In this document: positions 34,701-59,956 of the stretch, one piece after another | How the letters are laid out: every line of letters begins with the position of its first letter | Position numbering within the stretch: the stretch's first letter is position 1 | Assembly (NCBI GenBank): GCA_934182465.1 | Contig: CAKPRG010000001.1 | Location: forward strand, 273,549 to 337,548 | Reading direction: 5' to 3' | Origin: an uncultured Clostridia bacterium | GTDB taxonomy: Bacteria > Bacillota > Clostridia > TANB77 > CAG-508 | DNA: 64,000 bases | Made by a program: the position numbers and the translations under genes | The notes under the pieces: generated by a model | Told to the model about the DNA's origin: nothing | Databases searched by the model: none | The model's input: the letters and a program-made list of their open reading frames with translations, nothing else

Positions 34701-36117
34701 AATTAAGACAAGAACATATAATGTAAAAAATATAGATATGGGTATAGAATATAGACCAGAAGCAGAAATTTCTTTAAATAAAGAAATTAAGACAATTGAA
34801 TTAGTTACTTCAGATTCAGAAAAAATTATGAAAGTTGCATTTAAAGATGTAGTAGATTCAGACGGAAAGAAGAAATTAAATGATGCAACAGGTAGAATTG
34901 AAAGAGAAGTTGATTTCGATAATTCAGTCGGATTAGAAAATATACAATTTATTTGCAACAATAACAGACTACAAGGTTTTGCATATATAAATGTAGATGA
35001 CGAAATTTTACAAGGAAGTAAAATCAGTGTAGAATATGAATTTACAGTAACTAACATTAGTGAAGTAGATAGAATCAGTAAAAACTTAGATGTGTTAAGA
35101 TACAAAGAAAATAGTGAAAATGCAATATCAAGTAATAGTACTGATAGAGCAAAATATGTTGAAGAGAATAATTATTTAGGATCTGAAACAGCTGAAAAAT
35201 ATTTACACGATATAGTTTATGAAAAAGATAATAGATATGCATCAGATGATGAATATAGAACTATTGAAAAGACAATGACAACAGGAGATGACAATTATTA
35301 TGGTAGATATTTAGGAAGCACATACTTTACAAGCAATGTTACAGAAAAAGATACAGTAGTAGACTTAAAGATAGATAAGATTTTAGACTACATAGATACA
35401 GACTTATCATTCAAATCATCAAGTAACCAAGATACAGATCATTTCTGGGAAACAACAACTTCAGAAGCTTTAAGAACTGGTGATGGAATAAATGGAAGCT
35501 TAGTAGATCGTAACTTATTCGTAAATGTAAACAAAGATACTACAAATAATACAGAAGACTTAAAATTAGTAAACTTAAAAGGTGTAGCATTTGATTCAGA
35601 CTTAATGAGTAACTTAGCTGTAAGTATGGATGATAGAAACAATGATGATCAAACAGATAATGTAATAAATAAACAATTATCAAAATTCTTAGAACCAAAA
35701 ACAGTAAAAACTACAGCAGAAGAATATTCAGGATATGTAGCATTAACAACAGAAAAATTAATTTCATCAGAAACAGATACTGATAATCTAAGATTTGAAA
35801 ATATAGCAGAGATAATTCAATATACATGTACATCAGGTAGAAGAACAAACTTTGCAACAACAATAGGAAATGTAAATGTAAAAGCAAGTACAGGTGAATA
35901 TATCGAATCATTAAATGAAAAAGATACATCTGCAACAGAGGTAATTACATTATCACCACCAACAGGTTTAGAAAGATATCACAACATAATCTTAAATACA
36001 GTACAAGAAAATTCAAAGACAATAATTATATCAGTAATTGCAATAATAGTAGCCGTAAGCGCTACGGGAGCAATACCTGTATTGATCAAGAAGTATAAAA
36101 ATAGACCAATTAAGTAG
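28744..36117 (+). CDS. Giant surface protein B1 (2457 aa): signal peptide, N-terminal Cys...Gln module (possibly a thioester domain), Cys/His-rich insert, SdrD-B-like domains, SPPTG sorting signal
   Basis: RBS AAGGAGGTG 13 nt after the A1 stop. Two GxxWxDxNxDGxxxxxE prealbumin-like motifs. C-terminal LSPPTG, hydrophobic segment, KKYKNR. Confidence 0.8.
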   Translation: MKNKKILKLLIVFLIILSLCTVLLRNTWVYAEDEENIDENYVQEEPTNEESTSNEDENNAIASLDAEQESKINEELQQMLTGIPWSYPSNPITNKTFNSNPNYFCYQHGTPYATSSNIDGFQGNYNYMNASGLAYVYNNLTLKKPSIGTKISTDYKQKGTNPGTRVSYSNFHYRKVSQSYSGGFAFVLAKYKQTAAQRASTGYTNDPLQHAVWAHARQLGSGESNPLAPAMQAFDDYYSAAMNNPNINVTPGQNVGTVKSGNNYVVGPFKMSNYVRAVDYKYYEPTGYSGGQSSGSENEKDKNNNPKWNTGNTNLQAKFGTAANMQGTIIKAVAVLNNGNEIEFPVPDPGATFNISIPISKVGSADELKSIKFTYQRIYATGNGTWYEGKQIELTWSQTNVDKGCSTYYCQNQTPGYATHHSSSVGGTHSCTYTWTCYDHYSGHGCGGHTRYCGGCKTRSWTDSEGKKHSESYCPGHTYTISGCHCSCPGHSATHTSTFKCSHGYTNCRSFSWKVTSINEDHCQDGLEAYGSLGSTRKIYKINVNVPLTTNVSIYKYIVKVNHQNNDYIYGRQDADDTSRKTKTDKNTNTVKVERGDRITYRIDIVNSSRFDIRLKVKDYFPSNVEQVTVPGSFYTENQPGGNQNGAWIQVNARKTKTFYVTVVANALESSYTNTVQIITRNDTNPHMEYVKYGGHGPGPIVNLSNRLSDSDTYTIKEYQVNINKHITSVEHTTNSEKTYDSTAPNESNLKTNQTAGTRVNRTDEQNQSDPVYVEYGDRVYYEIDVYNTNNKDYRQTNNSAKPYWKPDMIHVNVEDTLPAKYSDLKITIENAMNSPSITKPGTSSTSGGTIKISDLQIAANTHATIKISLVVEEVKADTVCGNTAKIVGKINNINNRYIKNNETASRLTSTDYYKLNDYYINIDKYVSSYDGLIMNQNNQNQLTNETSTINTDESVERRGKSDTEKENSPFKVEKTETVTYSIRLDNKSTNNATKPATKVRTTDITETLQQGLEFQNDVTAKIFKSDGSVRVDNIKVNITDKGNNVYNLNIGNKQGEEYTTLNPGEYIIYYVKVKVTESNMYLYNLENKAEITTLTNINNTEKNPQRVVTEQNKYPIKKSSEYVKQKDLVIAGKVWLDKNQDGYMTEDETKFKDIVVHLYDAKTDKIVNTVRTNENGLYTFGRVYKASTKYDGSSVIGTIDEEGNKKNYKQGTDLNSYYVEFEYDGLMYKSTEIYSNDKHISESWLQPTDSGNYINDSNAYEFKDVREQFNTNYETIGYNVGYKVGEDKNSNSGTTTLEYSKDNHNSTLLEDRNRLMTARSFIISKDKNKSDGTANNTKSLWLYPLNSSNYKLAETEYLKYINLGLEEREDIDISLKKDVYQVKTTINGEEVIYDYNQENTNSEYTNDYVIKKAYGIDFYESDYKYRYEQYKNEKVQNYKGKESELNVEVTFKIAITNENIRENEPYRENKDVPVDVTIDELADYYDTNFMKYTGEENNTIKVKTKDGDYLKDKDIKIAEAWYKSSEDSTESRQLTLSNTSNYNNERNFTADGYNTLYIRGFDDIKIKEGETGYVFVKYVLDKEEGTRNLKITDSKANNLGIEGIAEINAYSTWYGAVSEEYKKENPAYEENYPAGLVDKDSNPGNIGDDNGVSTSATGNKSADDTGLYEDDTYKTGIQMNVKTITNPPENGDPPSIEQYRVLSGFVWDDSRSESINDSEDNVQYAGNGLYNTSDTKLGEAKSNKNVLELLDKSSDYKNIVNRFNSPTAEQNDFVVKDAKAQLIEIVKIPENEVDPSSGGTKYYEEIVDANWARVQETRTNSNGKYVLSGFIPGYYTVRFTYGDTTSDEMMTFNGQDYKTTKYTTGVENYTYKPEAGETELNTEKIKEYDKIMEALEAENKSDARDDEIDRLNAISYSEIMTNEKADTLKGISIPEGTDKEARKETLAEKTKMNAETVTFYVKPEKLDSYESNVTYATCTNIPYDKIKTRTYNVKNIDMGIEYRPEAEISLNKEIKTIELVTSDSEKIMKVAFKDVVDSDGKKKLNDATGRIEREVDFDNSVGLENIQFICNNNRLQGFAYINVDDEILQGSKISVEYEFTVTNISEVDRISKNLDVLRYKENSENAISSNSTDRAKYVEENNYLGSETAEKYLHDIVYEKDNRYASDDEYRTIEKTMTTGDDNYYGRYLGSTYFTSNVTEKDTVVDLKIDKILDYIDTDLSFKSSSNQDTDHFWETTTSEALRTGDGINGSLVDRNLFVNVNKDTTNNTEDLKLVNLKGVAFDSDLMSNLAVSMDDRNNDDQTDNVINKQLSKFLEPKTVKTTAEEYSGYVALTTEKLISSETDTDNLRFENIAEIIQYTCTSGRRTNFATTIGNVNVKASTGEYIESLNEKDTSATEVITLSPPTGLERYHNIILNTVQENSKTIIISVIAIIVAVSATGAIPVLIKKYKNRPIK

Positions 36118-36490: not shown

Positions 36491-39400
36491 ATGCATAGCA
36501 AAATGTTTAAAAGAATTTTGGCCGGAATTCTAATTTTTACATTAACATTTGCTAATCCAGCTTTGGTTACAAAGTCTTTTGCAACAAGTATTTTCGACAA
36601 AGTAAGTAATCAAACAGGAACAGGAAACAAAAACATTGAATTTAATGCAGGTTTTGATGCTGAAAATGCAGAAAGCTTTTCAGCTATTTCTGATGTAAAC
36701 AATGATAATTTAGCAATTAACTTAAATGTGAATGTAAAAAATAAGGGTTACTTAAAAAACGGAAAAGTTCAAATATTAGAAGGTACAGAAGGAGCTGGAC
36801 TTAATTTTGAACTAAAAAATCAAACAAAAGAAAGTGTTCAAAGTGAAGAAGTTTCAGAAGAAGCAAATGAGGCAGAACAAGTAACAGAAAATTTACCTGA
36901 TATGGTAGAAAAAATTGAAGATAATGTAGTTACTTTAAAACAAATTACTGCTGGTTCTGATATTTCAATTTCTTTACCAATTGAATACAAAAATGAAGAG
37001 TTTGTAAATTTAAGTAAATTAGTCGGTAATAGCAAAATATTATTTACAGGTGTTTATGTTGATGAAAAAGGAAATGAAATAGAAGTTGCAAAAGAAGTTG
37101 ATCTTACTCTTTCTTGGAAAGATGAAAGAACAGCAAAAATATCTTCAGAAATTGCAAAATATATTCCATATTCAACATCAAATGGAAATGGTATTATATT
37201 GCAAACTATTGTTGATTTAGATAATACTACTACAAATAAAACTTTACCAGTAAATAAAACAGAATTAAATATATCTGTTCCTACAATAGGAGATGCTAAG
37301 CCTAGTAAAATTACAGTAGTTGCAAATTCAACTATAGGTACAAATGGAAAAAATAATGAAAATGTTATTTTTACAGAAGATAATTGGACTTATGATCAAG
37401 AAACTGGAATTTTAAATATCAAAATGCAAAATGATAAACAATTAGTAAGAATAGACAATAGCAAAAATGATATATTAAAAAATGCAGAACAAGAAAATGT
37501 TGAAGAAGAAAGATATTATAGTTTGTCTGGAAAAGATGAATATGTTGTTACTTATTCATTTGAAAATGTAACAATGCAAGATGAATTAAAAACTTCTTAT
37601 AATATAAAAGGAAATTTAGAAACTTTTAGTGGTGTTGAAGCAGAAGGAAATATATATTCAAGTCAAACTGAGCAAAATTATGAATATACATTAACAGGAC
37701 AAAAAGGTGATATTGTTTCTTTACAAACTAACAATGAAACAGAAAGTATCTCAAAAGCATATACTTACTTAAATTATAATAATAAAGAAAACTATGAAAT
37801 TAAATACAATTCAAAAAATATAATAAACGTATCTTACAAAGATATTGTAGAAGAATTAAAAATAGAAGATAAAGATGTTTATTATATTGCAAAAGATGGA
37901 AATAAATATTTAACAAACGATATTAAATATAATAAAATTTCTATTTTAAAAGAAAATATTAATTCAATCTTAGGTGAAGATGGAGTTATTAAATTAGTAG
38001 ATTCAAACGGAAATGAAATTACTACTATTAATAAAGATACACAAGCAGATGAAAATGGAAATATTGTAATAGATTTATCAGAAAAAGGACTAACAAAAAT
38101 TACATTAATTACAAGTAAGCCAGTTCAAGAAGGAAACTTAATAGTAAATACAGAAAGAACTTCTAAAAAATCTGATTTTTCAAAAGAACAATACAAAAAC
38201 TTCTCTGCAATAGCTTTTGAAAATGAATTAAAAGCAAAATATACTTATGTATCAAGTGAAACATCTATAGCAACAAACACAATTCAAACAAATTTAAAAG
38301 ATACAAAAACAAAAGCTAACATTGTTTTAGATAGAGATAGCTTATCTACTATAGCAATGAACAATGATGTTGAAATAAGAGTAGAATTAAATAACAATAC
38401 TGATGAATCAGATGTTTATGGAGAATCAGTATTTGAAGTAGAAATGCCAGCATATATTCAAAATATGGAAATAACAAATACAAATATAGTATATGGTGAC
38501 GGATTAAACATTAAAAGTGTAGAGCCATACGAAAAAGATGGAAAAATATTTATTAGAATAACATTAGATGGTAAACAAGAATATCTAAACTCAGGTGTTT
38601 TAACAAATGGTTGTAACATAGTAATTAATGCAAACATAAAAGTTGATTTATTTACACCAGCAATGGAACAACAAGTAAAATTGACTTATACAAATAGTGA
38701 AGCAACAAATTATGAAAATGAACAAAGTAGTGGATTAGCAACAAGCAATATTTACTATTCTGCTCCAACAGGAGTAATTACAGTTAATACAACAAGTGAT
38801 TACAATGGTGCAGGAACAATGGTAACTTCTGTAAGACAAGGTTCAAAAGAAGATACAATTGAAATTTATTCAGGTGCTAAAACAGCTAATATGGAAGTTG
38901 TAGTTATGAACAACAATAAAAATACAATTTCTAATTTATCAATTTTAGGTAGAATACCTTTTAAAGGTGTAAAAGATATTCAAACAGGTGAAGACCTAGG
39001 AACAACAATAGATACAAAAATGGTAAGTGGATTAGTTGCAGATGCAAATAACAGAGGAAGCTTTGCAGTTTATTATTCTGCAAATCCAGAAGCAACTAAT
39101 GATTTATCAAATCAAGAAAATGGTTGGACACAAAATATAGAAGATTTATCAACAGTAAAATCATATTTAATAGTACCAACAGATGAAAATTATGAAATGG
39201 AACAAGCTGAAACATTAAGATTTACATATCAATACGAAATACCAGCTAATCTAGAACATAATGCAGATATATTTGGAACATTTTTAGCATACTATACAAA
39301 TCATACAGAAATTGCAACAGTTAAAGAAACATCAACAGCAGATAAAGTTGGTTTAACAACAGGTGAAGGACCACAAGTTGATATATCTTTAAAATCTGAT

Positions 39401-41665
39401 ACAAATTCAATAAAAGAATTTGAGGAATTGAAATTTACAACAACAGTAAAAAATACTGGAAAATCAGAAGCAAATAATATAGTTGTAAAAATGCCAATTC
39501 CAAGTTACACAAAATATATTACATCAAATTCAACAAAAGATAACACTACCGTAAATGTAGAAAATAATGTAGCAATATTTAATGTAAGTAGTTTAGCAGT
39601 AAACGAAAGTGTAGATTTAGAAATAGTAGTACAAGTTCTAGATACTCCAGAAGAACAAACACAGATTAAAGAAACATCAAGTATTACAGTTAAAGACTTA
39701 CAAAAAGAATTATCAACAAACGAAGTTACAATAGATTTAAAACAAGCTGAATTTTCAGTAAAAGTTTCAACTGTTGAAGATAATGCTGATGGAATGAAAA
39801 TTATTTATAGAGAAAATGATGAGTATTATTTTAAAGTACAATTAGAAAACTTAACATCAGAAGCTAAAAACAATGTAATATTAAAAACTCAATTACCTGA
39901 TTCATTTACATTTACAGAAGCTTATACAGTAGGATATGAAGCAGATGGTATAACAGAAAACAAAATAGACAATGCAGTATATGACGAACAAGCAAGAACA
40001 ATAACTTGGAAATTAGATAAAATAAGCGAATATGGTGCAAATCAATTTAATTTAATTGTAAAAGCAAATGAACTACCAGAAGGAACAACTCAAAAAGATG
40101 CTTCAGTAAAATTTGAAGCAACAGCAGATGGAACAGATACATATACATCAAATGAAGTTGTTTGCACAATAGCAAAACCAAGTTTGGTTGTATCACAAAA
40201 AACTTTAACAACAAATACATATGTAAAAGAAGGCGAAACTATCGAATATGTATTTAATGTAAAAAATGAAGGAATTGTTGCAGCTGAAAAATTAGTATTA
40301 AATGATCAAATCCCAGATGGATTAATCGTAAAAAATATTGATTATGTATCAAATGGAGTACATGCAACAAAAACAGTTTCTGAAAAAGATTCTGTAGAAA
40401 TAAATACAGTTATTATGCCAGGACAAGAACTAACAGTTAATGTAAAAGCATTAGCAGTAGACTTAAATGGTATGCAAGAAAAAACAGTAACAAATGCAGC
40501 TACAGTTTCAGCACAAAATGTAGATACAGTAAAAACAAATTCTATTACTCATATAGTTGAAGCAACAGATAAATCTGAACTATATGATACAGCTGGTGAA
40601 ACAGCAAATACAGCAACATCTCAATTACATTCATCAAACAGTAATTTATCAAAAACTTATAAGTTAACAGGTATTGCTTGGTTAGATGAAAACGGAAATG
40701 GTAAAAGAGATGATGATGAACCAAAAATGAGTAATATTACAGCAAGACTTGTAAATTCAGATACAGGTACAATTATAAAAACAGCTACTACAGATAGTAG
40801 AGGTGAATATAGCTTCTCAGGAATATCAAATGGAAACTATTTAGTAATATTTGATTATGATACAGTAAAATACACAGTAACAAGTTATAGACAAGCAGGA
40901 GTTGAAACAAATGTTAACTCAGATGCAATTACAACAAAAATAGAACAAGATGGAAAACAAAGAAATGGAGCTGTAACAGATGTTATTTCAATACAAGATT
41001 TAAGTGTATCTAATATAGATATAGGTTTTGTATTAGCAGATACATTTGATTTAAAATTAGATAAATCAGTAACAAAAATTACAGCACAAAACAAAGTTGG
41101 AACAAGTAAATCAGAATTTGATAAAACAAAACTTGCTAAGAAAGATATAGCAGGAAAATATATAGCAAGTACAACAGTTTACATCGAATACAACATTTCA
41201 GTTTCAAATGTTGGAGATGTAGCAGGATATGCTAAGAAAATAGTAGATTATATTCCAGAAGGAATGACATTTAATTCAAGCTTAAATAAAGACTGGTATA
41301 CAGGTACAGATGGAAATCTATACACATCAAGCTTAGCAGATGTAGAATTAAAACCAGGGGAAACAAAAGAATTAAAATTAGTTCTTACAAAACAAATGAC
41401 AGAAGAAAATACTGGTGTAGTAAATAACAATGCAGAAATTTATGAAGATTTCAATATTTATGGAATTTCAGATACAAATTCAACACCAGCAAATGGAGTT
41501 CAAAGTGAAAATGATATGAGCTCAGCAGATGCAATCTTAACAATTAAAACAGGTGAGAGCCTAATCTATGTATCAGTTATAATAACAAGTGCAATCTTAG
41601 GAGCAATAGTAATATTTATTTCATATAATAAGATTGTAGTTTCAAAAAGAAAGAGAGGTGTTTAA
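36491..41665 (+). CDS. Giant surface protein A2 (1724 aa), paralog of A1: DUF11-like repeats, SdrD-B-like domain, sorting-signal-like tail
   Basis: Collinear similarity to A1 across most of its length, for example YSAPTGVITVNT vs YQAPTGLIAVNT. GIAWLDENGNGKRDDDE. Tail LTIKTGE, hydrophobic segment, KRKRGV. Confidence 0.8.
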   Translation: MHSKMFKRILAGILIFTLTFANPALVTKSFATSIFDKVSNQTGTGNKNIEFNAGFDAENAESFSAISDVNNDNLAINLNVNVKNKGYLKNGKVQILEGTEGAGLNFELKNQTKESVQSEEVSEEANEAEQVTENLPDMVEKIEDNVVTLKQITAGSDISISLPIEYKNEEFVNLSKLVGNSKILFTGVYVDEKGNEIEVAKEVDLTLSWKDERTAKISSEIAKYIPYSTSNGNGIILQTIVDLDNTTTNKTLPVNKTELNISVPTIGDAKPSKITVVANSTIGTNGKNNENVIFTEDNWTYDQETGILNIKMQNDKQLVRIDNSKNDILKNAEQENVEEERYYSLSGKDEYVVTYSFENVTMQDELKTSYNIKGNLETFSGVEAEGNIYSSQTEQNYEYTLTGQKGDIVSLQTNNETESISKAYTYLNYNNKENYEIKYNSKNIINVSYKDIVEELKIEDKDVYYIAKDGNKYLTNDIKYNKISILKENINSILGEDGVIKLVDSNGNEITTINKDTQADENGNIVIDLSEKGLTKITLITSKPVQEGNLIVNTERTSKKSDFSKEQYKNFSAIAFENELKAKYTYVSSETSIATNTIQTNLKDTKTKANIVLDRDSLSTIAMNNDVEIRVELNNNTDESDVYGESVFEVEMPAYIQNMEITNTNIVYGDGLNIKSVEPYEKDGKIFIRITLDGKQEYLNSGVLTNGCNIVINANIKVDLFTPAMEQQVKLTYTNSEATNYENEQSSGLATSNIYYSAPTGVITVNTTSDYNGAGTMVTSVRQGSKEDTIEIYSGAKTANMEVVVMNNNKNTISNLSILGRIPFKGVKDIQTGEDLGTTIDTKMVSGLVADANNRGSFAVYYSANPEATNDLSNQENGWTQNIEDLSTVKSYLIVPTDENYEMEQAETLRFTYQYEIPANLEHNADIFGTFLAYYTNHTEIATVKETSTADKVGLTTGEGPQVDISLKSDTNSIKEFEELKFTTTVKNTGKSEANNIVVKMPIPSYTKYITSNSTKDNTTVNVENNVAIFNVSSLAVNESVDLEIVVQVLDTPEEQTQIKETSSITVKDLQKELSTNEVTIDLKQAEFSVKVSTVEDNADGMKIIYRENDEYYFKVQLENLTSEAKNNVILKTQLPDSFTFTEAYTVGYEADGITENKIDNAVYDEQARTITWKLDKISEYGANQFNLIVKANELPEGTTQKDASVKFEATADGTDTYTSNEVVCTIAKPSLVVSQKTLTTNTYVKEGETIEYVFNVKNEGIVAAEKLVLNDQIPDGLIVKNIDYVSNGVHATKTVSEKDSVEINTVIMPGQELTVNVKALAVDLNGMQEKTVTNAATVSAQNVDTVKTNSITHIVEATDKSELYDTAGETANTATSQLHSSNSNLSKTYKLTGIAWLDENGNGKRDDDEPKMSNITARLVNSDTGTIIKTATTDSRGEYSFSGISNGNYLVIFDYDTVKYTVTSYRQAGVETNVNSDAITTKIEQDGKQRNGAVTDVISIQDLSVSNIDIGFVLADTFDLKLDKSVTKITAQNKVGTSKSEFDKTKLAKKDIAGKYIASTTVYIEYNISVSNVGDVAGYAKKIVDYIPEGMTFNSSLNKDWYTGTDGNLYTSSLADVELKPGETKELKLVLTKQMTEENTGVVNNNAEIYEDFNIYGISDTNSTPANGVQSENDMSSADAILTIKTGESLIYVSVIITSAILGAIVIFISYNKIVVSKRKRGV

Positions 41666-41666
41666 T

Positions 41667-44600
41667 ATGAAAAATAAAAAAAGTAGATTAGTTATATGTT
41701 TTATACTAACATGCATAATTGTATTAAGCACCATAATTGGTTTAGCAACTTATGTAAGTGCTAAAGTTGATACAAGTAAATCACAATCTTATTCACAAGG
41801 AAATGGAAATCCTGCACCAGGATATATTACAGTAAGTGATTTGTGGACAAGATATGACATATTATGTTGTGCACACGGAGTTCATTTACCAAGTGCAAAT
41901 CAAACTGTACTTAATTCAGAAAAAGGTAGTGTTACAGAAGCTTATTTAACACAAAACGATATTGGTAAAAAGAATTTTGAACATACTGTTGATTCAACAA
42001 GTAGTTCAGCAAATTCACCATTTAAGTCAGCATCATATACAAATGAGACTTTTGGATATTACAAAGTAAATAATACTTATGTAGCAAAACCAATGGAAGC
42101 ATATATCTTAGCTGAAATGGCAAAAGAACAAATAGTTAGAGGACATGATAGTAATGTTCAAATTGCTTGGTGGAACACAGAAGCTGGTATGAAAGGTGTA
42201 ACAGCTTCTGCTCCAGAAGCATTAACATTAGAAGCACAAGATTTTGAAGCATATATTAAAAAAATTGCAAAATCTACAGATCCAAGCACATATACAACTC
42301 AACAATATGAATTTGAAGTAGATGGAACAAAATATACTGGTCAAGTACAAGCACCAGAATTAAATTACGAACCAAAATATAACAAAGATGCAAACCAAGA
42401 TGGTAAAGAAGACAGATATGATAATATAACAGTTTCTTGGAATGGAGAAAAATATAAAATAGGTCCATTCTCTGTAAATTATGTTGAAAGCAAAGTAAAA
42501 CATGAAGGTAGAGATGAAGTAATGTTTGCAGGTATTACAGATGCTAAAATCTATACAGATTTAGGTGAAGTACCAGCAGACAAATGGAAATTTGTATGGC
42601 TAGAAGGACAAAGAGACGCAAACGATACACAAGAATATCCTCATACAAATGAAGTATTTTATATAGAAATGGATTTTATAGAAAATGCAAAATATTTCAA
42701 AAACTTACATTTCGATTTTAAATATATGAATGCTGGTGGACAATATGATGAACTAGCAGGAACATATTTTAAAGCAACATGGAAACCAATGTCAAAAGCA
42801 CAATATTGTGCAGGTGGATATACAGATAGTGATGGTGATGATCATCCATGTTCACATGGATTCATGAGCAGACATGTTAAATCTTGGACATATTGGTTAC
42901 AATTAACAAGCTTAACATCTGATGAATCACAATTATTAGCTTATGGTATTGTTGGTGCTAGATGGTACAATCCAGCACAATTAGATTTAGACAACAGTAC
43001 AGACTTACCAAAAGATCATAAAGGAAAAGTAGAAATCAAAAAAGTCGTAGTTGATGAAAATGGAAATGAGCTTACATCACTAGATGATTCAAAATTCACA
43101 TTTAAGCTTTATATAAATGATAAATTATACGATACAATTAGAGTAAAAGCTAACGAATCAGTTACAGAAACAATTAAATGGAAAGATGGAGAAGAAACTC
43201 CAACATATAGAATTGAAGAAGTAAATCTTCCAGATGAATATACAGTAAAAGAAATAGAAAATGCTTCTGGTACAATGGCAGAAGAAGCAACAGTTAAAAT
43301 AAAAGCTATTAACAAAGTTAAACCACATAAAGGATACTTAAAAATAGAGAAAAAAGTAACAGAAGTTGCAGAACAAGATGAAACATATAAATTTAATATT
43401 TATATAGATAGTGTTTTAAAAGATCAAATTGCAATAACAATTCCAGCAGGTCAAACAGGAAATAGTGTTACAGTAGGACCTTATGAATGGAATGGAAGTG
43501 ATGCTCCAGTATATAGAGTAGAAGAAACAGAAATTCCAGAAAATGTAACACAATTCAACATGATAAATGAAAAAGGAAAGTTAGTTGCAGGAGATGAAGC
43601 TACACCAGTTACAGTAACAGCAATAAATGATAATAGTGATAATAAAGATCATGAAGGAACAATAGAAATTACAAAACAAGTTACAGAATTAGCTAAAGAA
43701 GACGAAATATATAAATTTAATGTTTATATAAATGGTGAATTAAAAGACCAAGTACAAATTACTGTTCCAGCAGGTCAAACATCAAATACAGTAACAGTTG
43801 GACCATTCAAATGGAAAGGTGATAAAGCACCAAGCTATGAAGTAAAAGAAGTTGAAATTCCATCAGGTGTTAAACAAGTTAATATTGTTAACTCAACAGG
43901 AACTTTAATAGATGGAAAAAATGGACAAAAAGTTATTGTAACAGCTATAAATAATAATGGTGGAGATAAACCAGAAGAAAATGAAGCAAAATTAGTTATT
44001 ACTAAAAAGGTTGACGGAAATGCATCAACAGATAAACAATTTAAATTTAAAATTACTATTGATGGAACAGTTTATTATGCACAAATAACAAAAGATTCAA
44101 GTTGGTCACAAACAGTAAAATGGAAAGAAGGAGAACAAGCTCCAACTTATAGTGTAGAAGAAATTGATATTCCAGATGGATATGAAAAAGTAAGTATTAC
44201 AAATGCATCTGGAACATTAGAAGCTGATAAAGATGTATATGTAGAAGCTTTAAATAAAGGTGATGATAAAGAATATTCTGGAACAATTCGTGTTACTAAA
44301 AAAGTAGAAAATTCAACAGATACAAATAAGAAATTCAAATTTAAAATTACTATTGGAGATACAACTTATACAAAAGAATTAGCAAATGGTGAAAGTTGGA
44401 CTGAAAATGTAAAATGGATTGGAAAAGATAATGCACCTAAGTATAAAGTAGAAGAAGTTGAAGTACCAGATGGATATAGCATTGTAAGTGTAGAAAATGC
44501 CGAAGGTACAATGGAAGAAAATAAAACAGTTATAGTAAAGGCAATAAATAGAGACAATGATGATAAAGAACATCAAGGTCAAATAACAGTAAAAAAAGAA

Positions 44601-47600
44601 GTACAAATTGATGATAAAGTAAAAGATGAAGCAATAGATGGAACATTCGATTTTGAAGTTACTATAATGGGAACATTCGAAATGAATGGAGAGAGCGTTG
44701 TAAATGGAAGTAGAACAATAAAACAAAGTGTAAAAGCTGGTGGAAGTTTTACAACTCCAACAATAAAATGGAAAGGCAAAAATGCTCCAACATATAAAGT
44801 AACAGAAACAAATTTACCAGATGGTTGGAAATTAGTTGATATTACAAATGCTTCTGGATTAGTAGAAGATAATACAAATATTGAAGCAGTTTGTACAAAC
44901 GAATATAAAATAACAGTAGAATATGAATTAACAATGCAAATGGGTGGTATGGTATGGCATGATGTAGCATTAAACCCAGATGACAAAAATACAGAAAATT
45001 CAAAACCAAATGGAAAATATGATGCAGGTGTAGAAGAAGGAATTGAAAAAGCACAAGTTACAATAAAAAGATACTTATGTGATGACAATGGAAATGTAAT
45101 TTCATGTACAGGAAATGCTAAAGCTTGGGATAAAGATGGAAATGAAATTTCATGGCCAATTTATACAGACATAGATGGTACATGGGATGTAGCAAAAGTT
45201 GAAATAACAGTAGCTAAAAATGGAGAACAAGGAAGAGTAAGATATGGAGTTGAATTTGGATATGATGGACAAACTTATGAACCAACTACATTCTTAGTTA
45301 CAGGTAATGGAGATGCAAATAGCTACAAAAAAGCATCAAGAGTTGATAGAGGAAACTTCTTCTATGATTCAATGGCAATTGATAATGAAAATGATAGAAA
45401 AGAATTTAATGCAAAATTCACAAATATAACAGGTGATGAAGCAATTAACTCAAACGGAGAAACAACTGGATACAGTACAGATGCAAATGGAAATAAAACA
45501 GCAACATTAGATTATGTATCAACAGATTCATTAAATACAATGGGAACAACAAGAAAAGAATCAACATTAGTTACAACAACAGATGACCACTATATTAAAG
45601 ATGACTTCTTAATGAAAGCAGAAACAACAACAGGTGGATTAACATTCCCATTTGATACAGCAATTCACTTAGAGAGTATAGATAAGAAAATTAATGAATT
45701 AGGAGCAACACATATTTACAAATATTCAGCAACATATCCATACTTACTAAGTATAAACTTAGGATTAGTTACAAGAAAAGAAGCTGAACTTGCAACTACA
45801 AAAGATGTATATTCAGCAGCAGTAGTAATTAATCAAAAAATGTTAAATTATCAATATAATCAAGCAATTGATTTTGAAAATGTAAAATATCAAGACTACT
45901 TAAACTTACAAGTTGAAGTAGCAGATGCAGATATAGAATATACATTAGATTTATATAAAACAGATTACTATTACAGAGCTAAAATATATGAAGAAAATGC
46001 AGAAGTAGCTGGAGCATTAAAGAGATTTTATAAATCTTTAGGATATACAGCAGAAAACGCATTAGATTCAGAATTAGATCTAGATGTTTATGTAACATAT
46101 AAAGTAAGTGTATATAATGATTCACAAACATATTTTGCAACAGTAAATGAAATAACAGATTACTTTGATGAAGATTATGAATTAGTTGAAGTTGAAAAGA
46201 GCAGATATTTACAAGAAGCAAATGGTGTTGCAGTAAATCAAGTAACAAAAATTGCTGATAGTCCATACTATAAAGTTTTAAGACAACAAGTAAATGGAGA
46301 TAATGTAGCTTGGGAAACAACTAACGATAATCAAAACCCAGTAAAATGGGAAAATGCAGGAACAGTTAAAGGTTCAGATGGAGTTACTTATAATAAAATA
46401 AAAACAAGTTCTATAAAAGATGAAATATTAGCATCTGGTGAAAGAATTGATTTATACTTAACATTTAGAGTAAAAACAGATGAAACTTCAGCTGATGGAG
46501 TATTAAATTGTGTAAGATTAGGAAGTAAAGCAAATGTGGCTGAAATTTCAAATTACACAACATATAACTCAAATAATAAATCAGATATAGCAGGTAAAGT
46601 TGATAAAGATTCAGCTCCAAACAATGTTAATATCGAAGAATTTAATGAAAAAACATGGTATGAAGATGATACAGATTCAGCACCAGTAATCACATTATCT
46701 TTATATGACACATCAAGAGAAGTAAATGGTATTGCTTGGGAAGATAAAGAAGACACAAAAATAGACAATGGATATGGACAAATAGTAGGTAATGGAGTAT
46801 ATGATCCAGGCGAAGAATTAATAGCAAATTTAACTACAGAATTATGGGAGAAAGTTAGAGTTAAGAAAATTGACGATAGCGGAAATGAAGTTAAAGATGC
46901 AAATGGAAACTTAGTATATACAGAATATGATTTCTTATGGCCAGAAGATTATGAAATCCAAGCTGGTAAAACATTAAAAGAATTAACAGGATTTGATTCA
47001 ACAACTAAGACAGGTGTTGATCAAGGAAATAAAGGACAATATGGATTTACAGGAGTTCCAACAGGTAACTATGTAGTAAGATTTGTATATGGTGATAGTG
47101 ATGAAACTTCAGCACCAGCAAACTATGATAAAGATGGTATTCCAGCAGTTTACAATGGACAAGATTTCAAGACAGTAGCTTATGAAACTGGATTTAATGG
47201 AATAACAGATACAAACTCAGACGGATATGTAGATAATGAATGGCATAACTTAGAAAATGAAGATTTAGCAAATGCTAGAGTTTCAGATGCTAGAGATAGT
47301 GAAGCAAGAAGACTTGAAATTACATCAAAATCTAGAATTTTAACAAACTCAAATACAACAATTTTAAATACAGCAAATGATAGAAATGCAGACCATACAA
47401 AATTATATGAAGAATACTATATGACAGCAGATACAGCAAAAATCAATTTGAATATTGAAAATATGGTAAGCTTAAAGAAACAAAAAGTTAATGTTACAAA
47501 TCCAACAACAGGAGCAGTAGAAGAAATAGCAGCTGGTGAAGAAAAACAAGTTGGTGGAATTACAGTAAACTATGTAAAAGGTAAAGTAAACTTAGCAAAT

Positions 47601-48911
47601 GGTGGCAATACATCATTAGATAGATTAGACTTTACTTACAAAGTAAATAACATAGATGTTGGTCTTGAAGAAAGAGCAAGTACAGAAATTAAATTAGATA
47701 AACAAATTGAAAATATAACATTAACAGACAATACTGGAGCAGTTATTTTAAAAGCAGATTATGATTTAATCTATACTCCAAAATTTGATGAAAAAACAGG
47801 AAAAACATCTATAAAAGTAGATGCAAAATTAAATCCTGAAACATCAATTGGAACAGATAATTTACAAGCATTAAATAGAGATGAAGCAGCAGGATTACAA
47901 AACTTTAGATATATTTACTACGATAACTCAATTGCTCAATCATTAACATTAAATGTAACTTATAGATTTACAGCATTAAACTTAGGTGAAGTTGATAGAA
48001 TTGGATTATTAGGAAATAGTAAATTTGATGAACCACAAACTATATTAGAAGAAGTTAAGAAATTATCTGAATCTGATTATTCATACAATACAAGAGAAAA
48101 GACATTTAGTAAAACTGCAAATGCAGATGGAAAAGTTTATGCAGATTCATTTGGTAAATATTTAGGAAGTATTTACTATGAAGGCTCTTATGCAAAAGCA
48201 GAATTAGATGATATAGTAACAACAAGAATAGATACTTTAATCGATTATGTTGATAATAATGCAATCTTTAAGGCAGAAGAAAATAATGGATTAAATAATA
48301 GTTGGAGAGTAATTACAGTTGATGAGTTAGCAGCAGATGATTCTGATATAATAGACAAAAATATAATTACAACTTATGAAGATGGAACAAAGAATATAGA
48401 AGATTCAAAAGGTGCAACTTATGAAACAGCTGAAAGATATAATATCATCTTAAGTATAGAAAATAACGATAGTTCTGCAACAGAAATGTCAAATAAAGAC
48501 TTCAATGTAAAATTAATTCCATATAGTGCTACAAAAGCATTTGATGTAAATAGTGATTTAGATTACAACTATACAACAGCAATGAAGATGAATATGACTA
48601 GATCAATTGATGCAGAAGTTAATGATGAAGACTTATCATTTGATAATATGGCAGAAATAGTTAAATTAGACAATACAGCAGGTAGAAGAGATGTTACAAC
48701 AATTGCAGGTAATGCAAACCCTAAAGAAGGTGAATTTGCAACATCATTAAAAGAGAGAGACGCAAGTGCAACAGAATTAATTACATTCTCTCCACCAACT
48801 GGTATGAATGCAAAAACAATTTTAGCAATCCAAATTGCATTAGTTACAATTTTAGGATTAGGAATTGTATCAGCTGGTATAATTGTTATTAAGAAAAAAG
48901 TTCTTAAATAA
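41667..48911 (+). CDS. Giant surface protein B2 (2414 aa), paralog of B1: N-terminal Cys...Gln module, about five tandem Cna-B/E-box-like domains, SdrD-B-like domains, SPPTG sorting signal
   Basis: ATG 41667 lies 2 nt after the A2 stop, with RBS AGAGAGGTG. Repeats carry YxVEExxxPxGY. C-terminal FSPPTG, hydrophobic segment, KKKVLK. Confidence 0.8.
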   Translation: MKNKKSRLVICFILTCIIVLSTIIGLATYVSAKVDTSKSQSYSQGNGNPAPGYITVSDLWTRYDILCCAHGVHLPSANQTVLNSEKGSVTEAYLTQNDIGKKNFEHTVDSTSSSANSPFKSASYTNETFGYYKVNNTYVAKPMEAYILAEMAKEQIVRGHDSNVQIAWWNTEAGMKGVTASAPEALTLEAQDFEAYIKKIAKSTDPSTYTTQQYEFEVDGTKYTGQVQAPELNYEPKYNKDANQDGKEDRYDNITVSWNGEKYKIGPFSVNYVESKVKHEGRDEVMFAGITDAKIYTDLGEVPADKWKFVWLEGQRDANDTQEYPHTNEVFYIEMDFIENAKYFKNLHFDFKYMNAGGQYDELAGTYFKATWKPMSKAQYCAGGYTDSDGDDHPCSHGFMSRHVKSWTYWLQLTSLTSDESQLLAYGIVGARWYNPAQLDLDNSTDLPKDHKGKVEIKKVVVDENGNELTSLDDSKFTFKLYINDKLYDTIRVKANESVTETIKWKDGEETPTYRIEEVNLPDEYTVKEIENASGTMAEEATVKIKAINKVKPHKGYLKIEKKVTEVAEQDETYKFNIYIDSVLKDQIAITIPAGQTGNSVTVGPYEWNGSDAPVYRVEETEIPENVTQFNMINEKGKLVAGDEATPVTVTAINDNSDNKDHEGTIEITKQVTELAKEDEIYKFNVYINGELKDQVQITVPAGQTSNTVTVGPFKWKGDKAPSYEVKEVEIPSGVKQVNIVNSTGTLIDGKNGQKVIVTAINNNGGDKPEENEAKLVITKKVDGNASTDKQFKFKITIDGTVYYAQITKDSSWSQTVKWKEGEQAPTYSVEEIDIPDGYEKVSITNASGTLEADKDVYVEALNKGDDKEYSGTIRVTKKVENSTDTNKKFKFKITIGDTTYTKELANGESWTENVKWIGKDNAPKYKVEEVEVPDGYSIVSVENAEGTMEENKTVIVKAINRDNDDKEHQGQITVKKEVQIDDKVKDEAIDGTFDFEVTIMGTFEMNGESVVNGSRTIKQSVKAGGSFTTPTIKWKGKNAPTYKVTETNLPDGWKLVDITNASGLVEDNTNIEAVCTNEYKITVEYELTMQMGGMVWHDVALNPDDKNTENSKPNGKYDAGVEEGIEKAQVTIKRYLCDDNGNVISCTGNAKAWDKDGNEISWPIYTDIDGTWDVAKVEITVAKNGEQGRVRYGVEFGYDGQTYEPTTFLVTGNGDANSYKKASRVDRGNFFYDSMAIDNENDRKEFNAKFTNITGDEAINSNGETTGYSTDANGNKTATLDYVSTDSLNTMGTTRKESTLVTTTDDHYIKDDFLMKAETTTGGLTFPFDTAIHLESIDKKINELGATHIYKYSATYPYLLSINLGLVTRKEAELATTKDVYSAAVVINQKMLNYQYNQAIDFENVKYQDYLNLQVEVADADIEYTLDLYKTDYYYRAKIYEENAEVAGALKRFYKSLGYTAENALDSELDLDVYVTYKVSVYNDSQTYFATVNEITDYFDEDYELVEVEKSRYLQEANGVAVNQVTKIADSPYYKVLRQQVNGDNVAWETTNDNQNPVKWENAGTVKGSDGVTYNKIKTSSIKDEILASGERIDLYLTFRVKTDETSADGVLNCVRLGSKANVAEISNYTTYNSNNKSDIAGKVDKDSAPNNVNIEEFNEKTWYEDDTDSAPVITLSLYDTSREVNGIAWEDKEDTKIDNGYGQIVGNGVYDPGEELIANLTTELWEKVRVKKIDDSGNEVKDANGNLVYTEYDFLWPEDYEIQAGKTLKELTGFDSTTKTGVDQGNKGQYGFTGVPTGNYVVRFVYGDSDETSAPANYDKDGIPAVYNGQDFKTVAYETGFNGITDTNSDGYVDNEWHNLENEDLANARVSDARDSEARRLEITSKSRILTNSNTTILNTANDRNADHTKLYEEYYMTADTAKINLNIENMVSLKKQKVNVTNPTTGAVEEIAAGEEKQVGGITVNYVKGKVNLANGGNTSLDRLDFTYKVNNIDVGLEERASTEIKLDKQIENITLTDNTGAVILKADYDLIYTPKFDEKTGKTSIKVDAKLNPETSIGTDNLQALNRDEAAGLQNFRYIYYDNSIAQSLTLNVTYRFTALNLGEVDRIGLLGNSKFDEPQTILEEVKKLSESDYSYNTREKTFSKTANADGKVYADSFGKYLGSIYYEGSYAKAELDDIVTTRIDTLIDYVDNNAIFKAEENNGLNNSWRVITVDELAADDSDIIDKNIITTYEDGTKNIEDSKGATYETAERYNIILSIENNDSSATEMSNKDFNVKLIPYSATKAFDVNSDLDYNYTTAMKMNMTRSIDAEVNDEDLSFDNMAEIVKLDNTAGRRDVTTIAGNANPKEGEFATSLKERDASATELITFSPPTGMNAKTILAIQIALVTILGLGIVSAGIIVIKKKVLK

Positions 48912-59100: not shown

Positions 59101-59956
59101 ATATGTTGATTTACCTATGATATTTAGACAAGCTGAAGAATTAGATAATGTTAGAACATCATTTGGTATAAACAGTATTTTTGGAAATGTTACAAATGAT
59201 GGTAAACAAGCATTATTAGATACAAGTAAAATTGGAGAACAAACAGCTCAAGTATCTATAGTAGATACAAATGCTTTAAATCCTGGAATTTGTAGTGGTA
59301 CATTCTGTACAATTAAATATACAGTTACAGAAAAACCAGTAATTCCAGATGATAACAATAACACAGTAGACAACAATGTAACAAACAACACAATTGATAA
59401 TGATATTACAAATAACACAGTAAATAATGATACAACAAATAATACAGTAAATAATGATATAACAAACAATACTGTGGATAATAATGTAACAAATAACACA
59501 GTAGATAACAATGTTACAAATAATACAGTTGATCCAAGCACTTTAGGATATACTGTAAAAGGTGAAAGCGTAATAGGGGTTTCACCAAAAACAACAGTTA
59601 AAAACTTTAGTACAAAATTAACAGAAGACTTCAAAGTAGTAGTTGTAGTTGAAAATGATGATGGAACTACAACAGTAGTTGATAATTATGTAGGAACAGG
59701 AATGATTGCTGTACTATATAATTCAGAAGACAAACCTGTTGCTGCATATGAAATTGTAGTAAAAGGTGATGTAAATGGTGATGGACTTGCAAATGCATTA
59801 GACTCTAATTTAATAAAAGCTTATAGAGCTGAAATAACAGACTTGTCAGGTGCATATAAAGAAGCAGCAGATATTAACCAAGATGGAAAAGTAGATGCGA
59901 TAGATTCAAGATTGTTGTTATATCATAGAGCAGAAATAAGTGGATACATACTATAA
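56198..59956 (+). CDS. Secreted LRR (internalin-like) and long coiled-coil protein with a C-terminal type-I dockerin domain
   Basis: Signal peptide. LRR units LDLSANEL/LDLSSNKLSDVS. About 200-aa heptad coiled coil. Second LRR block. NNTVDNNVT repeats. Dockerin duplicated loops DVNGDGLANALD...AYRAEI and DINQDGKVDAIDSRLLLYHRAEI. Confidence 0.8.
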   Translation: MNKKMLISIALIFVMLLNYVVPFSLAYDEATSDIEITFNGNLYAAIKKNLVDAGIDASEYNDAQRTMKISQSAIDSVTSFNLSNSGISDLTGLDTFKNVTSLDLSANELDSDSNLEVLNSLNLKFLDLSSNKLSDVSMITNISTIQTLNLHNQKFNIIQIVEIDEETESDQLVEATYDLPQILSYGGLLKPEWLPETKYQNGSNPAPYVNWTKFDGKKITITTGSKSESNYTPYYGMTKVGVEVTDSTNTLYNSKINLYYITVSSDERGIIFKDENLYKAVKEQLTKAQTVNTDLSKYTDKGNLYARAYDEPLVLVVSINDLINKIPSLKLVDRKIKDLTGLEMFVGLEKELNLEGNYIEDIEKIIELKRKKLEEQEKLRAKVQKQIAYIKESVDAIEEAKKNVESETKKVTTLVTEEQTLKTEISKLEDEINTLNAETTTLNNNLPTYKTTLENAKDNLAQKQNELTLLNNELVTLNNNLSKASTTDEKDKIKAQIEAKKAEKEAKQIEVDQAKDAVTTAEKQVTDTEAKIKSNTEAVTSKTKDLNSKKTDLSKKSNSISESYQVIANNNNTADLHREYLKAKLARLYEIYKKSYKLARLATVQLSTLTDEEFENLTYENAKSIFEAQTSRLADIENNLAAYESSYVIKEFNIPTLSNVTVNGDTEGTSSTKTVAIENPIATYFKEYAKNHEDWKLSDIKGFLLKVRYMSTVLEMMNYCTIERLYNGTTTCYAEEYLNSEIATKTWNGESTSDLTKIKSNLNTIKSTFADTYGHQCTGAVSYDGNNDIYALAKKYSTATSEEINAYVTIPMLKVLNVRRNLIESIDGIEELDELQELYAGNNELVNIESVDWTKMVNLKKLDLSYNSISEIKCLEVLAKLEELDLSKNLIAGAFNFTISGMPKLKKLNMSYNAINDIEYLRTQLTFVARGEGFDDIASYLNAGKFDVRFYGQILSMNLDLVQMGRATYVDLPMIFRQAEELDNVRTSFGINSIFGNVTNDGKQALLDTSKIGEQTAQVSIVDTNALNPGICSGTFCTIKYTVTEKPVIPDDNNNTVDNNVTNNTIDNDITNNTVNNDTTNNTVNNDITNNTVDNNVTNNTVDNNVTNNTVDPSTLGYTVKGESVIGVSPKTTVKNFSTKLTEDFKVVVVVENDDGTTTVVDNYVGTGMIAVLYNSEDKPVAAYEIVVKGDVNGDGLANALDSNLIKAYRAEITDLSGAYKEAADINQDGKVDAIDSRLLLYHRAEISGYIL
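59354..59533 (+). repeat. Imperfect 27-bp tandem repeat (about 6.7 copies) encoding NNTVDNNVT units
   Basis: Read directly in the nucleotide sequence and the translation. Confidence 0.8.

What the first reader, a model, noticed from the sequence alone, without database searches (positions are those of the whole stretch)
43330..44810. Array of about five 105-aa tandem domains in B2 with pilin E-box-like motifs (Cna-B type, candidate isopeptide domains)
Repeats such as HEGTIEITKQVTELAKEDEIYKFNVYINGELKDQVQITVPAGQTSNTVTVGPFKWKGDKAPSYEVKEVEIPSGV recur with 50-70% identity. Each ends in Y-x-V-x-E-x-x-x-P-x-G-Y/V (YSVEEIDIPDGY, YKVEEVEVPDGY, YRIEEVNLPDEY, YEVKEVEIPSGV, YKVTETNLPDGW). This is the E-box signature of Cna-B or SpaA-type pilin domains that form intramolecular Lys-Asn/Asp isopeptide bonds. 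The repeats begin with conserved Lys (KFKITI, KFNVYI) and carry internal Asn/Asp (AINNNG, ALNKGDD). High inter-repeat identity also makes this a recombination-prone, length-variable stalk.
Basis: partly seen in the sequence, partly recalled or inferred. Interest (0 to 1): 0.6.

Follow-up and report, generated by a model that had tools for sequence, protein, structure and literature searches.

The report
Six cross-link-type stalk domains in a surface protein
A 2,414-residue surface protein of an uncultured gut Clostridia bacterium carries six tandem CnaB-like domains (Pfam DUF7601), each with the Lys-Glu-Asn triad that forms a self-made internal cross-link in Gram-positive pilins and adhesins; this is a new member of a known kind of rigid stalk, not a new mechanism.

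Summary
ORF B2 (window 41667-48911, +) holds six, not five, tandem domains of 97-117 aa. They cover aa 454-1088 (window 43017-44921), which extends beyond the flagged range on both sides. Pairwise identity is 27-54 %, not 50-70 %.

Every repeat keeps a Lys in the first strand, the E-box Glu (YxVxE) and an Asn ending the last strand. Across 426 related domains these are the best-conserved positions: K 98 %, E 100 %, N 92 %.

An AlphaFold model of repeat 4 is confident (pLDDT 93). Its closest solved structures are isopeptide-bonded domains of Spy0128, PitA and Cpa. Repeats 4 and 5 pass the Pfam threshold for DUF7601. This is a CnaB-like family of the transthyretin clan, already predicted to carry Lys-Glu-Asn isopeptide bonds (PMC12617251).

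The core interpretation holds. Four details do not:
- Nothing marks the protein as a pilin: no YPK motif was found, and no sortase among the window ORFs tested.
- The DNA copies share at most 19 identical bases.
- Protein length is constant within each of three ≥90 %-identity clusters, so a recombination-prone, strain-variable stalk is not supported.

Copy number does differ between species, with 4, 6, 8 and 10 most common. Bond formation itself is inferred, not shown.

The parts
41667..48911 (+). Gene B2: 2,414-aa surface protein. The true start is most likely ATG 41667; the ORF listing extends the ORF to GTG 41658.
   Evidence: ORF. ATG at 41667 is preceded by AGAGAGG and lies 1 nt after the A2 stop. 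Length 2414 aa equals the 99 %-identical P0152.
41667..41762 (+). Predicted Sec signal peptide (MKNKKSRLVICFILTCIIVLSTIIGLATYVSA | KVD)
   Evidence: Sequence read directly: basic N-terminus, hydrophobic core, VSA cleavage-type site. This is an inference; no predictor was run.
41763..43016 (+). N-terminal domain of about 420 aa and unknown family, with invariant Cys (YDILCC) and Gln (VQIAWW)
   Evidence: No Pfam, NCBIfam or PDB sequence match. Cys and Q.AWW motifs occur in 79 of 92 homologues. C67 and Q165 are invariant in alignment A3.
43017..43331 (+). Repeat R1 (aa 454-558). Triad codons: K462 at 43041, E521 at 43218, N552 at 43311.
   Evidence: DUF7601 is sub-threshold (16.5 bits).
43326..43649 (+). 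Repeat R2 (aa 557-664). Triad codons: K565 at 43350, E623 at 43524, N657 at 43626.
   Evidence: No Pfam hit on its own. 54 % identical to R3.
43650..43973 (+). Repeat R3 (aa 665-772). Triad codons: K673 at 43674, E731 at 43848, N765 at 43950. This is the repeat quoted in the finding.
43980..44273 (+). Repeat R4 (aa 775-872). Triad codons: K783 at 44004, E835 at 44160, N866 at 44253. This is the repeat that was modelled.
   Evidence: DUF7601 at 35.8 bits against a cut-off of 27. AlphaFold2 pLDDT 93.3, with K in the first strand, E in strand 59-66 and N at the end of the last strand.
44274..44570 (+). Repeat R5 (aa 873-971). Triad codons: K881 at 44298, E933 at 44454, N964 at 44547.
   Evidence: DUF7601 at 30.7 bits against a cut-off of 27.
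44571..44921 (+). Repeat R6 (aa 972-1088), a distinct terminal subtype with a 12-aa insertion (FEMNGESVVNGS). Triad codons: K980 at 44595, E1050 at 44805, N1081 at 44898.
   Evidence: The R6 type is the last repeat in all 10 homologues examined.
44922..48788 (+). C-terminal region of about 1,290 aa, conserved in the B family (25.6 % identical to paralogue B1). Only weak SpaA/SdrD_B-like signals near aa 1730-1830.
48789..48908 (+). Cell-wall sorting signal: SPPTG, then a hydrophobic segment, then a KKKVLK tail
   Evidence: [FL][ST]PPTG dominates the C-termini of homologues. It matches the (S/P)PxTG type recognised by C. difficile SrtB (PMC4155245, PMC5118464).
36491..41665 (+). Gene A2 (1,724 aa), directly upstream of B2 and translationally adjacent to it. 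It carries DUF11/CLIPPER and SdrD_B domains.
   Evidence: The same A-B-spoIIE order is seen in L001 and L009.

Best explanation
The six repeats are CnaB-like (transthyretin-clan) beta-sandwich domains of the Pfam DUF7601 type. Together they form the stalk of a giant surface protein that probably depends on a sortase for anchoring. In each domain the Lys of the first strand (K462, 565, 673, 783, 881, 980) lies next to the Asn that ends the last strand (N552, 657, 765, 866, 964, 1081). The buried E-box Glu (E521, 623, 731, 835, 933, 1050) catalyses attack of the Lys amine on the Asn amide. Ammonia is lost and a Lys-Asn isopeptide bond forms spontaneously. This staples the first and last strands together, so the domain cannot be unfolded by pulling on its ends and it resists proteases and heat. 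Six stapled domains in series would make a rod of roughly 25-30 nm between the unknown N-terminal domain of about 420 aa and the C-terminal region of about 1,290 aa that ends in an SPPTG sorting signal.

Shown here: the repeats, the conserved triad, the fold and the family. Inferred: that the bonds form, the mechanical role, the rod length and the sortase anchoring.
For: - Triad conservation. K, E and N are invariant in all six repeats. They are the best-conserved positions in 426 related domain instances (K 98 %, E 100 %, N 92 % plus 6 % alignment gaps) and in the 149-row alignment A2 (K12 and E64 invariant, N95 >=90 %).
- Fold. The AlphaFold2 model of R4 built with A2 has pLDDT 93.3 and pTM 0.83. 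It is all-beta, with K12 in the first strand, N95 at the end of the last strand and E64 in an inner strand. This is the CnaB arrangement (definition of the arrangement in PMC12617251).
- Structural neighbours. Foldseek top hits in the PDB are isopeptide-bonded Gram-positive domains: Spy0128, PitA, Cpa, the Mobiluncus adhesin, a CnaB2 domain, GBS52, the Cna B repeats and SpaA.
- Profile against PDB sequences. PitA gives E = 8e-12 over two tandem domains. Cpa (4BUG) aligns the family Lys and Glu with chain positions 344 and 414. With a single offset of 266 these are Lys610 and Glu680, the published bond residues.
- Pfam. R4 (35.8 bits) and R5 (30.7 bits) exceed the DUF7601 cut-off of 27. 63 of 149 family members hit DUF7601 and 22 hit DUF5979. 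The two PitA domains are themselves DUF7601 (51 and 85 bits).
- Literature. DUF7601 is listed as a CnaB-like isopeptide family (Lys190/Glu263/Asn305), with 668 of 818 AlphaFold-database domains predicted to be bonded.
- Local environment. Conserved Phe residues in strand B (85-87 %) fit the Phe-rich surroundings reported for CnaB-like bonds.
- E-box equivalence. hhalign places E835 on Glu77 of the SpyCatcher CnaB2 E-box.
Against: - No experiment and no atomic coordinates were available. The Lys-Asn distance in the model could not be measured and Isopeptor could not be run.
- R1, R2, R3 and R6 do not reach any Pfam threshold on their own, and the full-length protein gives no DUF7601 hit.
- About 18 % of DUF7601 domains in the survey were not predicted to be bonded.
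- I could not read the PitA paper, so I have no text confirming that the PitA DUF7601 domains show the bond.
Confidence: 0.8

Rival explanations
1. The fold is the same but there is no covalent bond. The repeats would be plain transthyretin-like spacer domains, with the Lys, Glu and Asn conserved for packing or hydrogen bonding only.
For: In the published survey 150 of 818 DUF7601 domains, and nearly all SdrD_B domains, were not predicted to be bonded. No bond was observed here.
Against: The three triad residues are the most conserved positions of the family, above the hydrophobic core residues. They sit on the first strand, the last strand and an inner strand, exactly as in bonded CnaB domains.
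Confidence: 0.13
2. B2 is a pilin subunit. The E-box domains would belong to a protein that a pilus-specific sortase polymerises into a fibre.
For: The best structural and sequence neighbours are pilins (Spy0128, PitA, PitB, SpaA, GBS52). A sorting signal is present.
Against: There is no YPK pilin motif. No sortase was found among the window ORFs tested. The protein is 2,414 aa with large non-pilin N- and C-terminal regions. The locus is a chromosomal mre/minC...spoIIE neighbourhood, conserved in relatives and without a sortase.
Confidence: 0.04
3. The array is a contingency locus. Its repeats would recombine often, so that stalk length differs between strains.
For: Copy number differs between related species, with 4, 6, 8 and 10 most common. 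Some homologues have a duplicated whole array.
Against: Nucleotide identity between copies is 55-69 %, the longest shared exact word is 19 nt and Tandem Repeats Finder detects no array. Orthologues at 99, 83 and 76 % identity all have six copies. Lengths are constant within each of three >=90 % clusters, based on the 15 members listed per cluster.
Confidence: 0.05
4. The domains are cross-linked by a different chemistry, such as the Thr-Gln ester bonds of Cpe0147-type stalk domains.
For: The Mobiluncus adhesin, which carries both ester and isopeptide bonds, is among the structural neighbours.
Against: No Thr, Gln, His or Asp position is invariant in the repeats. The invariant polar residues are K, E and N. 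There is no hit to the Pfam ester-bond (TQ) domain.
Confidence: 0.01

Closest known systems
Pfam DUF7601 (PF24547), a CnaB-like isopeptide-domain family of the Transthyretin clan CL0287 (PMC12617251)
   Same: R4 and R5 pass the gathering threshold. The Lys-Glu-Asn triad sits at the same profile positions: Lys near position 7 and Asn near the end of the domain. The model fold is CnaB-like.
   Different: R1, R2, R3 and R6 are too divergent to be detected singly, and the full-length protein gives no hit. As a result most family members carry no Pfam annotation in the database.
PitA, the tip pilin of the Streptococcus oralis PI-2 pilus (PDB 7W6B, 7VCN, 7VCR)
   Same: Its two C-terminal domains are DUF7601. 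They match the profile of this family at E = 8e-12, with the Lys and the YxVEE box aligned.
   Different: PitA is 793 aa, has a von Willebrand factor A adhesive domain, has only two such domains and is built into a pilus by dedicated sortases. B2 has six domains, different end regions and no pilus genes nearby.
Spy0128 and Cpa (Spy0125) of Streptococcus pyogenes
   Same: They are the top structural neighbours. The Cpa DUF5979 domain aligns its bond residues Lys610 and Glu680 with the family Lys and Glu.
   Different: Sequence similarity is marginal (E about 0.09). Both are pilus subunits. The thioester domain of Cpa has no detectable counterpart here by sequence.
Cna B repeats (Pfam Cna_B, PF05738) and SpaA-type domains (PF17802)
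   Same: Same clan, same strand arrangement, same E-box logic (Y-x-x-x-E-x-x-x-P-x-G-Y).
   Different: Neither model is matched above threshold by any of the six repeats. The best SpaA score is 15.2 bits against a cut-off of 23.1, and Cna_B is not hit.
Fibrillar adhesins with stapled stalks, such as Cpe0147 of C. perfringens or FbaB/SfbI (own knowledge)
   Same: The overall plan is the same: signal peptide, distal domain, tandem internally cross-linked stalk domains, C-terminal sorting signal.
   Different: Here a further region of about 1,290 aa and unknown fold lies between the stalk and the anchor. The distal domain has no recognised family.

Membership tests
Pfam DUF7601 (PF24547) | Score at or above the curated gathering threshold (27 bits) | tested here: met
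   R4 scores 35.8 bits and R5 30.7 bits. R1 scores 16.5 bits, and R2, R3 and R6 give no hit. Those four are tied to R4 and R5 by the array profile (E 1e-36 to 1e-40) and by blastp.
CnaB-like intramolecular isopeptide domain | Lys in the first strand, Asn or Asp in the adjacent last strand, and a catalytic Glu | tested here: met
   The triad is invariant in all six repeats and 92-100 % conserved in 426 instances. Strand positions come from the pLDDT-93 model.
CnaB-like intramolecular isopeptide domain | Transthyretin-like beta-sandwich fold resembling solved bonded domains | tested here: met
CnaB-like intramolecular isopeptide domain | The covalent Lys-Asn bond actually forms (minus 17 Da, continuous density) | not testable with these tools
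   No coordinates were returned by the prediction tool, and no experiment was possible.
Pfam Cna_B (PF05738) | Match to the model above threshold | tested here: not met
   None of the six repeats hits it. Only 1 of 149 family members hits it, at E = 1.7e-4.
Pfam SpaA prealbumin-like domain (PF17802) | Match to the model above threshold (23.1 bits) | tested here: not met
   R4 scores 15.2 bits and R5 13.0 bits. 6 of 149 members match at E <= 0.01.
Sortase-assembled pilin | Pilin motif with the linking Lys (YPKN-type) | tested here: not met
   There is no YPK in B2. This is a regex only, and divergent pilin motifs would be missed.
Sortase-assembled pilin | A pilus-specific (class C) sortase encoded next to the pilin gene | tested here: not met
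   No sortase domain was found in the 20 window ORFs scanned or in the called genes of L009. Not every window ORF was scanned.
Sortase substrate (cell-wall-anchored protein) | C-terminal sorting signal: motif, hydrophobic segment, basic tail | tested here: met
   B2 ends in SPPTG, then 26 mostly hydrophobic residues, then KKKVLK. [FL][ST]PPTG recurs in homologues. The motif type is known from C. difficile SrtB substrates. Cleavage and anchoring were not tested.
Thr-Gln ester-bond stalk domain | Conserved Thr, Gln, His and Asp residues | tested here: not met
   None of these is among the invariant columns.
Thioester domain (for the N-terminal region only) | Match to TED/TQXA models or structures, plus a Cys...TQxA[IV]W pair | tested here: inconclusive
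   An invariant Cys67 and Q165-x-A-W-W are present. There is no Pfam, NCBIfam or PDB-sequence match.

The most novel reading that the evidence does not exclude
The stalk itself is conventional, but the protein around it may not be. The N-terminal domain of about 420 aa has no detectable relative in Pfam, NCBIfam or the PDB, yet it keeps an invariant Cys and an invariant Gln in a Q-x-A-W-W motif resembling the TQxA[IV]W signature of thioester adhesin domains. B2 could therefore carry a new class of covalent-binding (thioester-like) tip domain. It would be one part of a conserved pair of giant proteins (A with CLIPPER/DUF11 domains, B with DUF7601 domains) encoded just upstream of spoIIE in a clade of uncultured gut Clostridia.
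Probability: 0.15. Interest if true: 0.55.

Novelty: new member of a known kind. Interest (0 to 1): 0.3.

Why it matters
Internally cross-linked CnaB-like domains are the standard way Gram-positive bacteria build thin stalks that resist force and proteases. They are also the source of SpyTag/SpyCatcher-type protein glues. This array adds six divergent DUF7601 domains from an uncultured, very AT-rich (26 % G+C) gut Clostridia lineage.

It also shows that this family of proteins of about 2,400-3,200 aa is mostly unannotated because full-length Pfam scans miss the domains. The ordered subtype pattern, R1-(R2/3)n-(R4/5)m-R6, gives a simple picture of how stalk length changes between species.

The mechanism is not new, so the value is annotation and a possible source of new split-domain ligation pairs. 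The unexplained N- and C-terminal regions are the more interesting targets.

Tried and rejected
- Full-length Pfam and NCBIfam scans of B2 gave no relevant hit. A scan of the whole array gave only spurious hits. The domains became visible only when single repeats with correct boundaries were scanned.
- A single-sequence AlphaFold run on R2-R4 was poor (pLDDT 55) and cost one of the two prediction jobs.
- A word-indexed homologue search with the array alone found only two proteins. The full-length query and the exhaustive profile search were needed.
- The six-repeat profile A1 against PDB sequences was insignificant (E 0.3). The 149-row profile A2 was needed.
- My first DNA identity matrix, with free end gaps, was meaningless. 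I replaced it with codon-aligned identities.
- The N-terminal thioester idea found no support from single sequences or a seven-sequence profile against Pfam and the PDB.
- The C-terminal region scanned in 250-aa pieces gave only sub-threshold SpaA/SdrD_B signals.
- The PitA structure paper (FEBS J 2022) is not in the held library, so the bond status of the PitA DUF7601 domains rests on my memory and is not used as evidence.
- Considered and rejected: Thr-Gln ester domains, pilin subunit, contingency repeat (see rival explanations).


Full report
**1. What is in the sequence.**

The flagged interval lies inside one long ORF, 41658..48911 on the + strand.
- The likely true start is ATG 41667. 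It is preceded by AGAGAGG and lies one base after the stop codon of the upstream gene. It gives 2,414 aa, the length of the 99 %-identical database protein P0152.
- A regex for Y-x-[VIL]-x-E-x3-[PV] finds six sites, at aa 517, 619, 727, 831, 929 and 1046. It finds none in the three other giant ORFs of the window.
- Blastp of one repeat against the protein recovers the other five at E from 2e-37 to 3e-10.
- A profile built from the array delimits six domains at aa 454-558, 557-664, 665-772, 775-872, 873-971 and 972-1088, which is window 43017-44921.

So the array is real and far beyond chance. It has six units rather than about five, and it extends beyond the given coordinates on both sides.

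Pairwise protein identity is 27-54 %, and only R2/R3 exceeds 50 %. Codon-aligned nucleotide identity is 55-69 %. The longest exact DNA word shared by any two repeats is 19 nt. Tandem Repeats Finder reports no array in the region.

**2. The conserved residues.**

Eleven columns are invariant in the six repeats. Among them are a Lys in the first strand (I-x-[IV]-x-K-x-V), the Glu of the E-box and an Asn that closes the last strand (A-[IL]-N or C-T-N).

An exhaustive profile search of 1.84 billion representative proteins found 636 proteins at E <= 1e-3. Many are 2,400-3,200 aa long with 4-10 matched stretches. In 426 near-complete domain instances from the best 150 proteins, conservation is Lys 98 %, Glu 100 % and Asn 92 % (a further 6 % are alignment gaps). 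This is higher than the core Phe, Tyr and Gly positions at 84-87 %.

**3. Fold.**

A single-sequence AlphaFold run was poor (pLDDT 55). I then used a 149-row alignment of domain instances from proteins found with the full-length query. With it, repeat 4 (aa 770-873) gave pLDDT 93.3 and pTM 0.83.

The model is all-beta. Lys783 is in the first strand, Asn866 is at the end of the last strand and Glu835 is in the strand that carries the E-box. This is the arrangement that defines CnaB-like isopeptide domains: bond residues on adjacent first and last strands of one sheet, with a Glu as catalyst (PMC12617251).

**4. Family.**

Full-length scans miss the domains. With proper boundaries, R4 (35.8 bits) and R5 (30.7 bits) pass the gathering threshold (27 bits) of Pfam DUF7601. 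R1 is sub-threshold, and R2, R3 and R6 give nothing on their own.

Of 149 family instances, 63 hit DUF7601, 22 DUF5979, 6 SpaA, 3 SpaA_4, 2 FctA and 1 Cna_B.

The 149-row profile matches the PDB sequence of PitA (S. oralis PI-2 tip pilin; 7VCN, 7VCR, 7W6B) at E = 8e-12 over two tandem domains. It matches Cpa (4BUG) weakly. There the family Lys and Glu fall on chain positions that, with a single offset of 266, are Lys610 and Glu680, the published bond residues. The two PitA domains are themselves DUF7601 (51 and 85 bits).

The 2025 survey of intramolecular isopeptide bonds lists DUF7601 as a new CnaB-like family in the Transthyretin clan, with Lys190, Glu263 and Asn305 in its reference protein. 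It predicts 668 of 818 AlphaFold-database domains to be bonded.

The correct filing is therefore 'CnaB-like, DUF7601' rather than 'Cna_B/SpaA'.

**5. Context.**

B2 has:
- a signal-peptide-like N-terminus;
- a domain of about 420 aa with no Pfam, NCBIfam or PDB relative;
- the six-domain stalk;
- a region of about 1,290 aa with only weak SpaA/SdrD_B-like signals;
- a C-terminal SPPTG followed by a hydrophobic segment and KKKVLK.

[FL][ST]PPTG recurs at the C-termini of homologues. It is of the (S/P)PxTG type recognised by the C. difficile sortase SrtB (PMC4155245, PMC5118464).

There is no YPK pilin motif. No sortase was found in the 20 window ORFs scanned. Together these argue against a pilin.

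The window holds two gene pairs, A1-B1 and A2-B2. The A proteins carry DUF11/CLIPPER and SdrD_B domains. The locus lies between mreBCD, a penicillin-binding protein gene and minC on one side and spoIIE on the other. The order A-B-spoIIE is kept in a 77 % orthologue (L001) and in a 42 % homologue (L009). All genome hits are MAGs of uncultured Clostridia or Clostridiaceae; from their record titles, several appear to be gut samples (human Hadza, mouse, rabbit). The window has 26 % G+C.

**6. Stalk length.**

Orthologues at 99, 83 and 76 % identity all have six repeats. Among the 15 members listed for each of the three >=90 % clusters, lengths are 2414 (one of 2416), 2416 (all) and 2403 (one of 2387).

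Across the family the copy number is mostly 4, 6, 8 or 10. The first repeat is always R1-like and the last R6-like, and the R2/3-like and R4/5-like units vary in between. Two homologues carry a duplicated whole array.

Length therefore changes between species by internal duplication. There is no sign of strain-level variation, and no DNA identity that would drive frequent recombination.

**7. Mechanism and confidence.**

The best-supported reading is a stalk of six CnaB-like domains, each stapled by a spontaneous Lys-Asn isopeptide bond catalysed by the E-box Glu. This would give an inextensible, protease-resistant spacer in a wall-anchored giant surface protein.
- Shown here: repeats, triad, fold, family.
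- Inferred: bond formation, mechanics, anchoring.

I put about 0.95 on the fold and family and about 0.8 on the bonds forming in most of the six domains.

**8. Novelty.**

This is a new member of a known kind. The stalk chemistry and the domain family are already described. The protein family around it is uncharacterised. Its N-terminal domain, with an invariant Cys and a Q-x-A-W-W motif, is the part that might hold something new, but nothing beyond the motif supports a thioester function.

Noticed in passing
window 41763-43016 (B2 aa 36-453): N-terminal domain with no Pfam, NCBIfam or PDB-sequence relative. It has an invariant Cys (YDILCC) and an invariant Gln in Q-x-A-W-W, which resembles the Cys...TQxA[IV]W pair of thioester adhesin domains. 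Both motifs occur in 79 of 92 homologues.
   Followed up: partly
window 22978-28731, 28744-36117, 36491-41665, 41667-48911: Four giant same-strand ORFs form two A-B pairs. A1 and A2 are 29 % identical, and B1 and B2 are 26 % identical over their C-terminal 1,240 aa. B1 has no DUF7601-type array. The A-B-spoIIE order is conserved in L001 and L009.
   Followed up: partly
window 36491-41665 (A2) and 22978-28731 (A1): The A proteins carry DUF11 (renamed CLIPPER, a CnaA-like isopeptide family in PMC12617251) and SdrD_B domains. They end in a hydrophobic segment and a basic tail preceded by IKTG (A2) or VATG (A1), possibly a divergent sorting motif.
   Followed up: no
window 48789-48908; C-termini of P0003-P0012 and others: The B family ends in [FL][ST]PPTG, a transmembrane segment and KKKVL.K. 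This is a C. difficile-type (S/P)PxTG sorting signal. No sortase gene was found among the window ORFs scanned.
   Followed up: partly
window 41658-41669: the ORF listing starts B2 at GTG 41658, overlapping the end of A2. ATG 41667, with an AGAGAGG ribosome-binding site and 1 nt after the A2 stop, is the more likely start. It gives the 2,414 aa seen in database members.
   Followed up: yes
B2 full length versus single repeats: hmmscan of the full-length protein reports no DUF7601, yet repeats R4 and R5 scanned alone pass the curated threshold. Most homologues carry no precomputed Pfam domain, so this family is systematically under-annotated.
   Followed up: partly
homologues P0003, P0004, P0155, P0156, P0157, P0160, P0183: The arrays have ordered subtypes, R1-(R2/3)n-(R4/5)m-R6. 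Copy numbers are mostly even (4, 6, 8, 10). P0004 and P0160 carry a tandem duplication of a whole four-unit array.
   Followed up: partly
P0006 (7,727 aa): A protein with 59 matched stretches to the repeat profile. This is a much longer array of related domains in another, unidentified organism.
   Followed up: no
window 56198-59956: A 1,252-aa ORF downstream of the locus was not examined. The gene at the corresponding position in L009 carries leucine-rich repeats and a dockerin domain.
   Followed up: no
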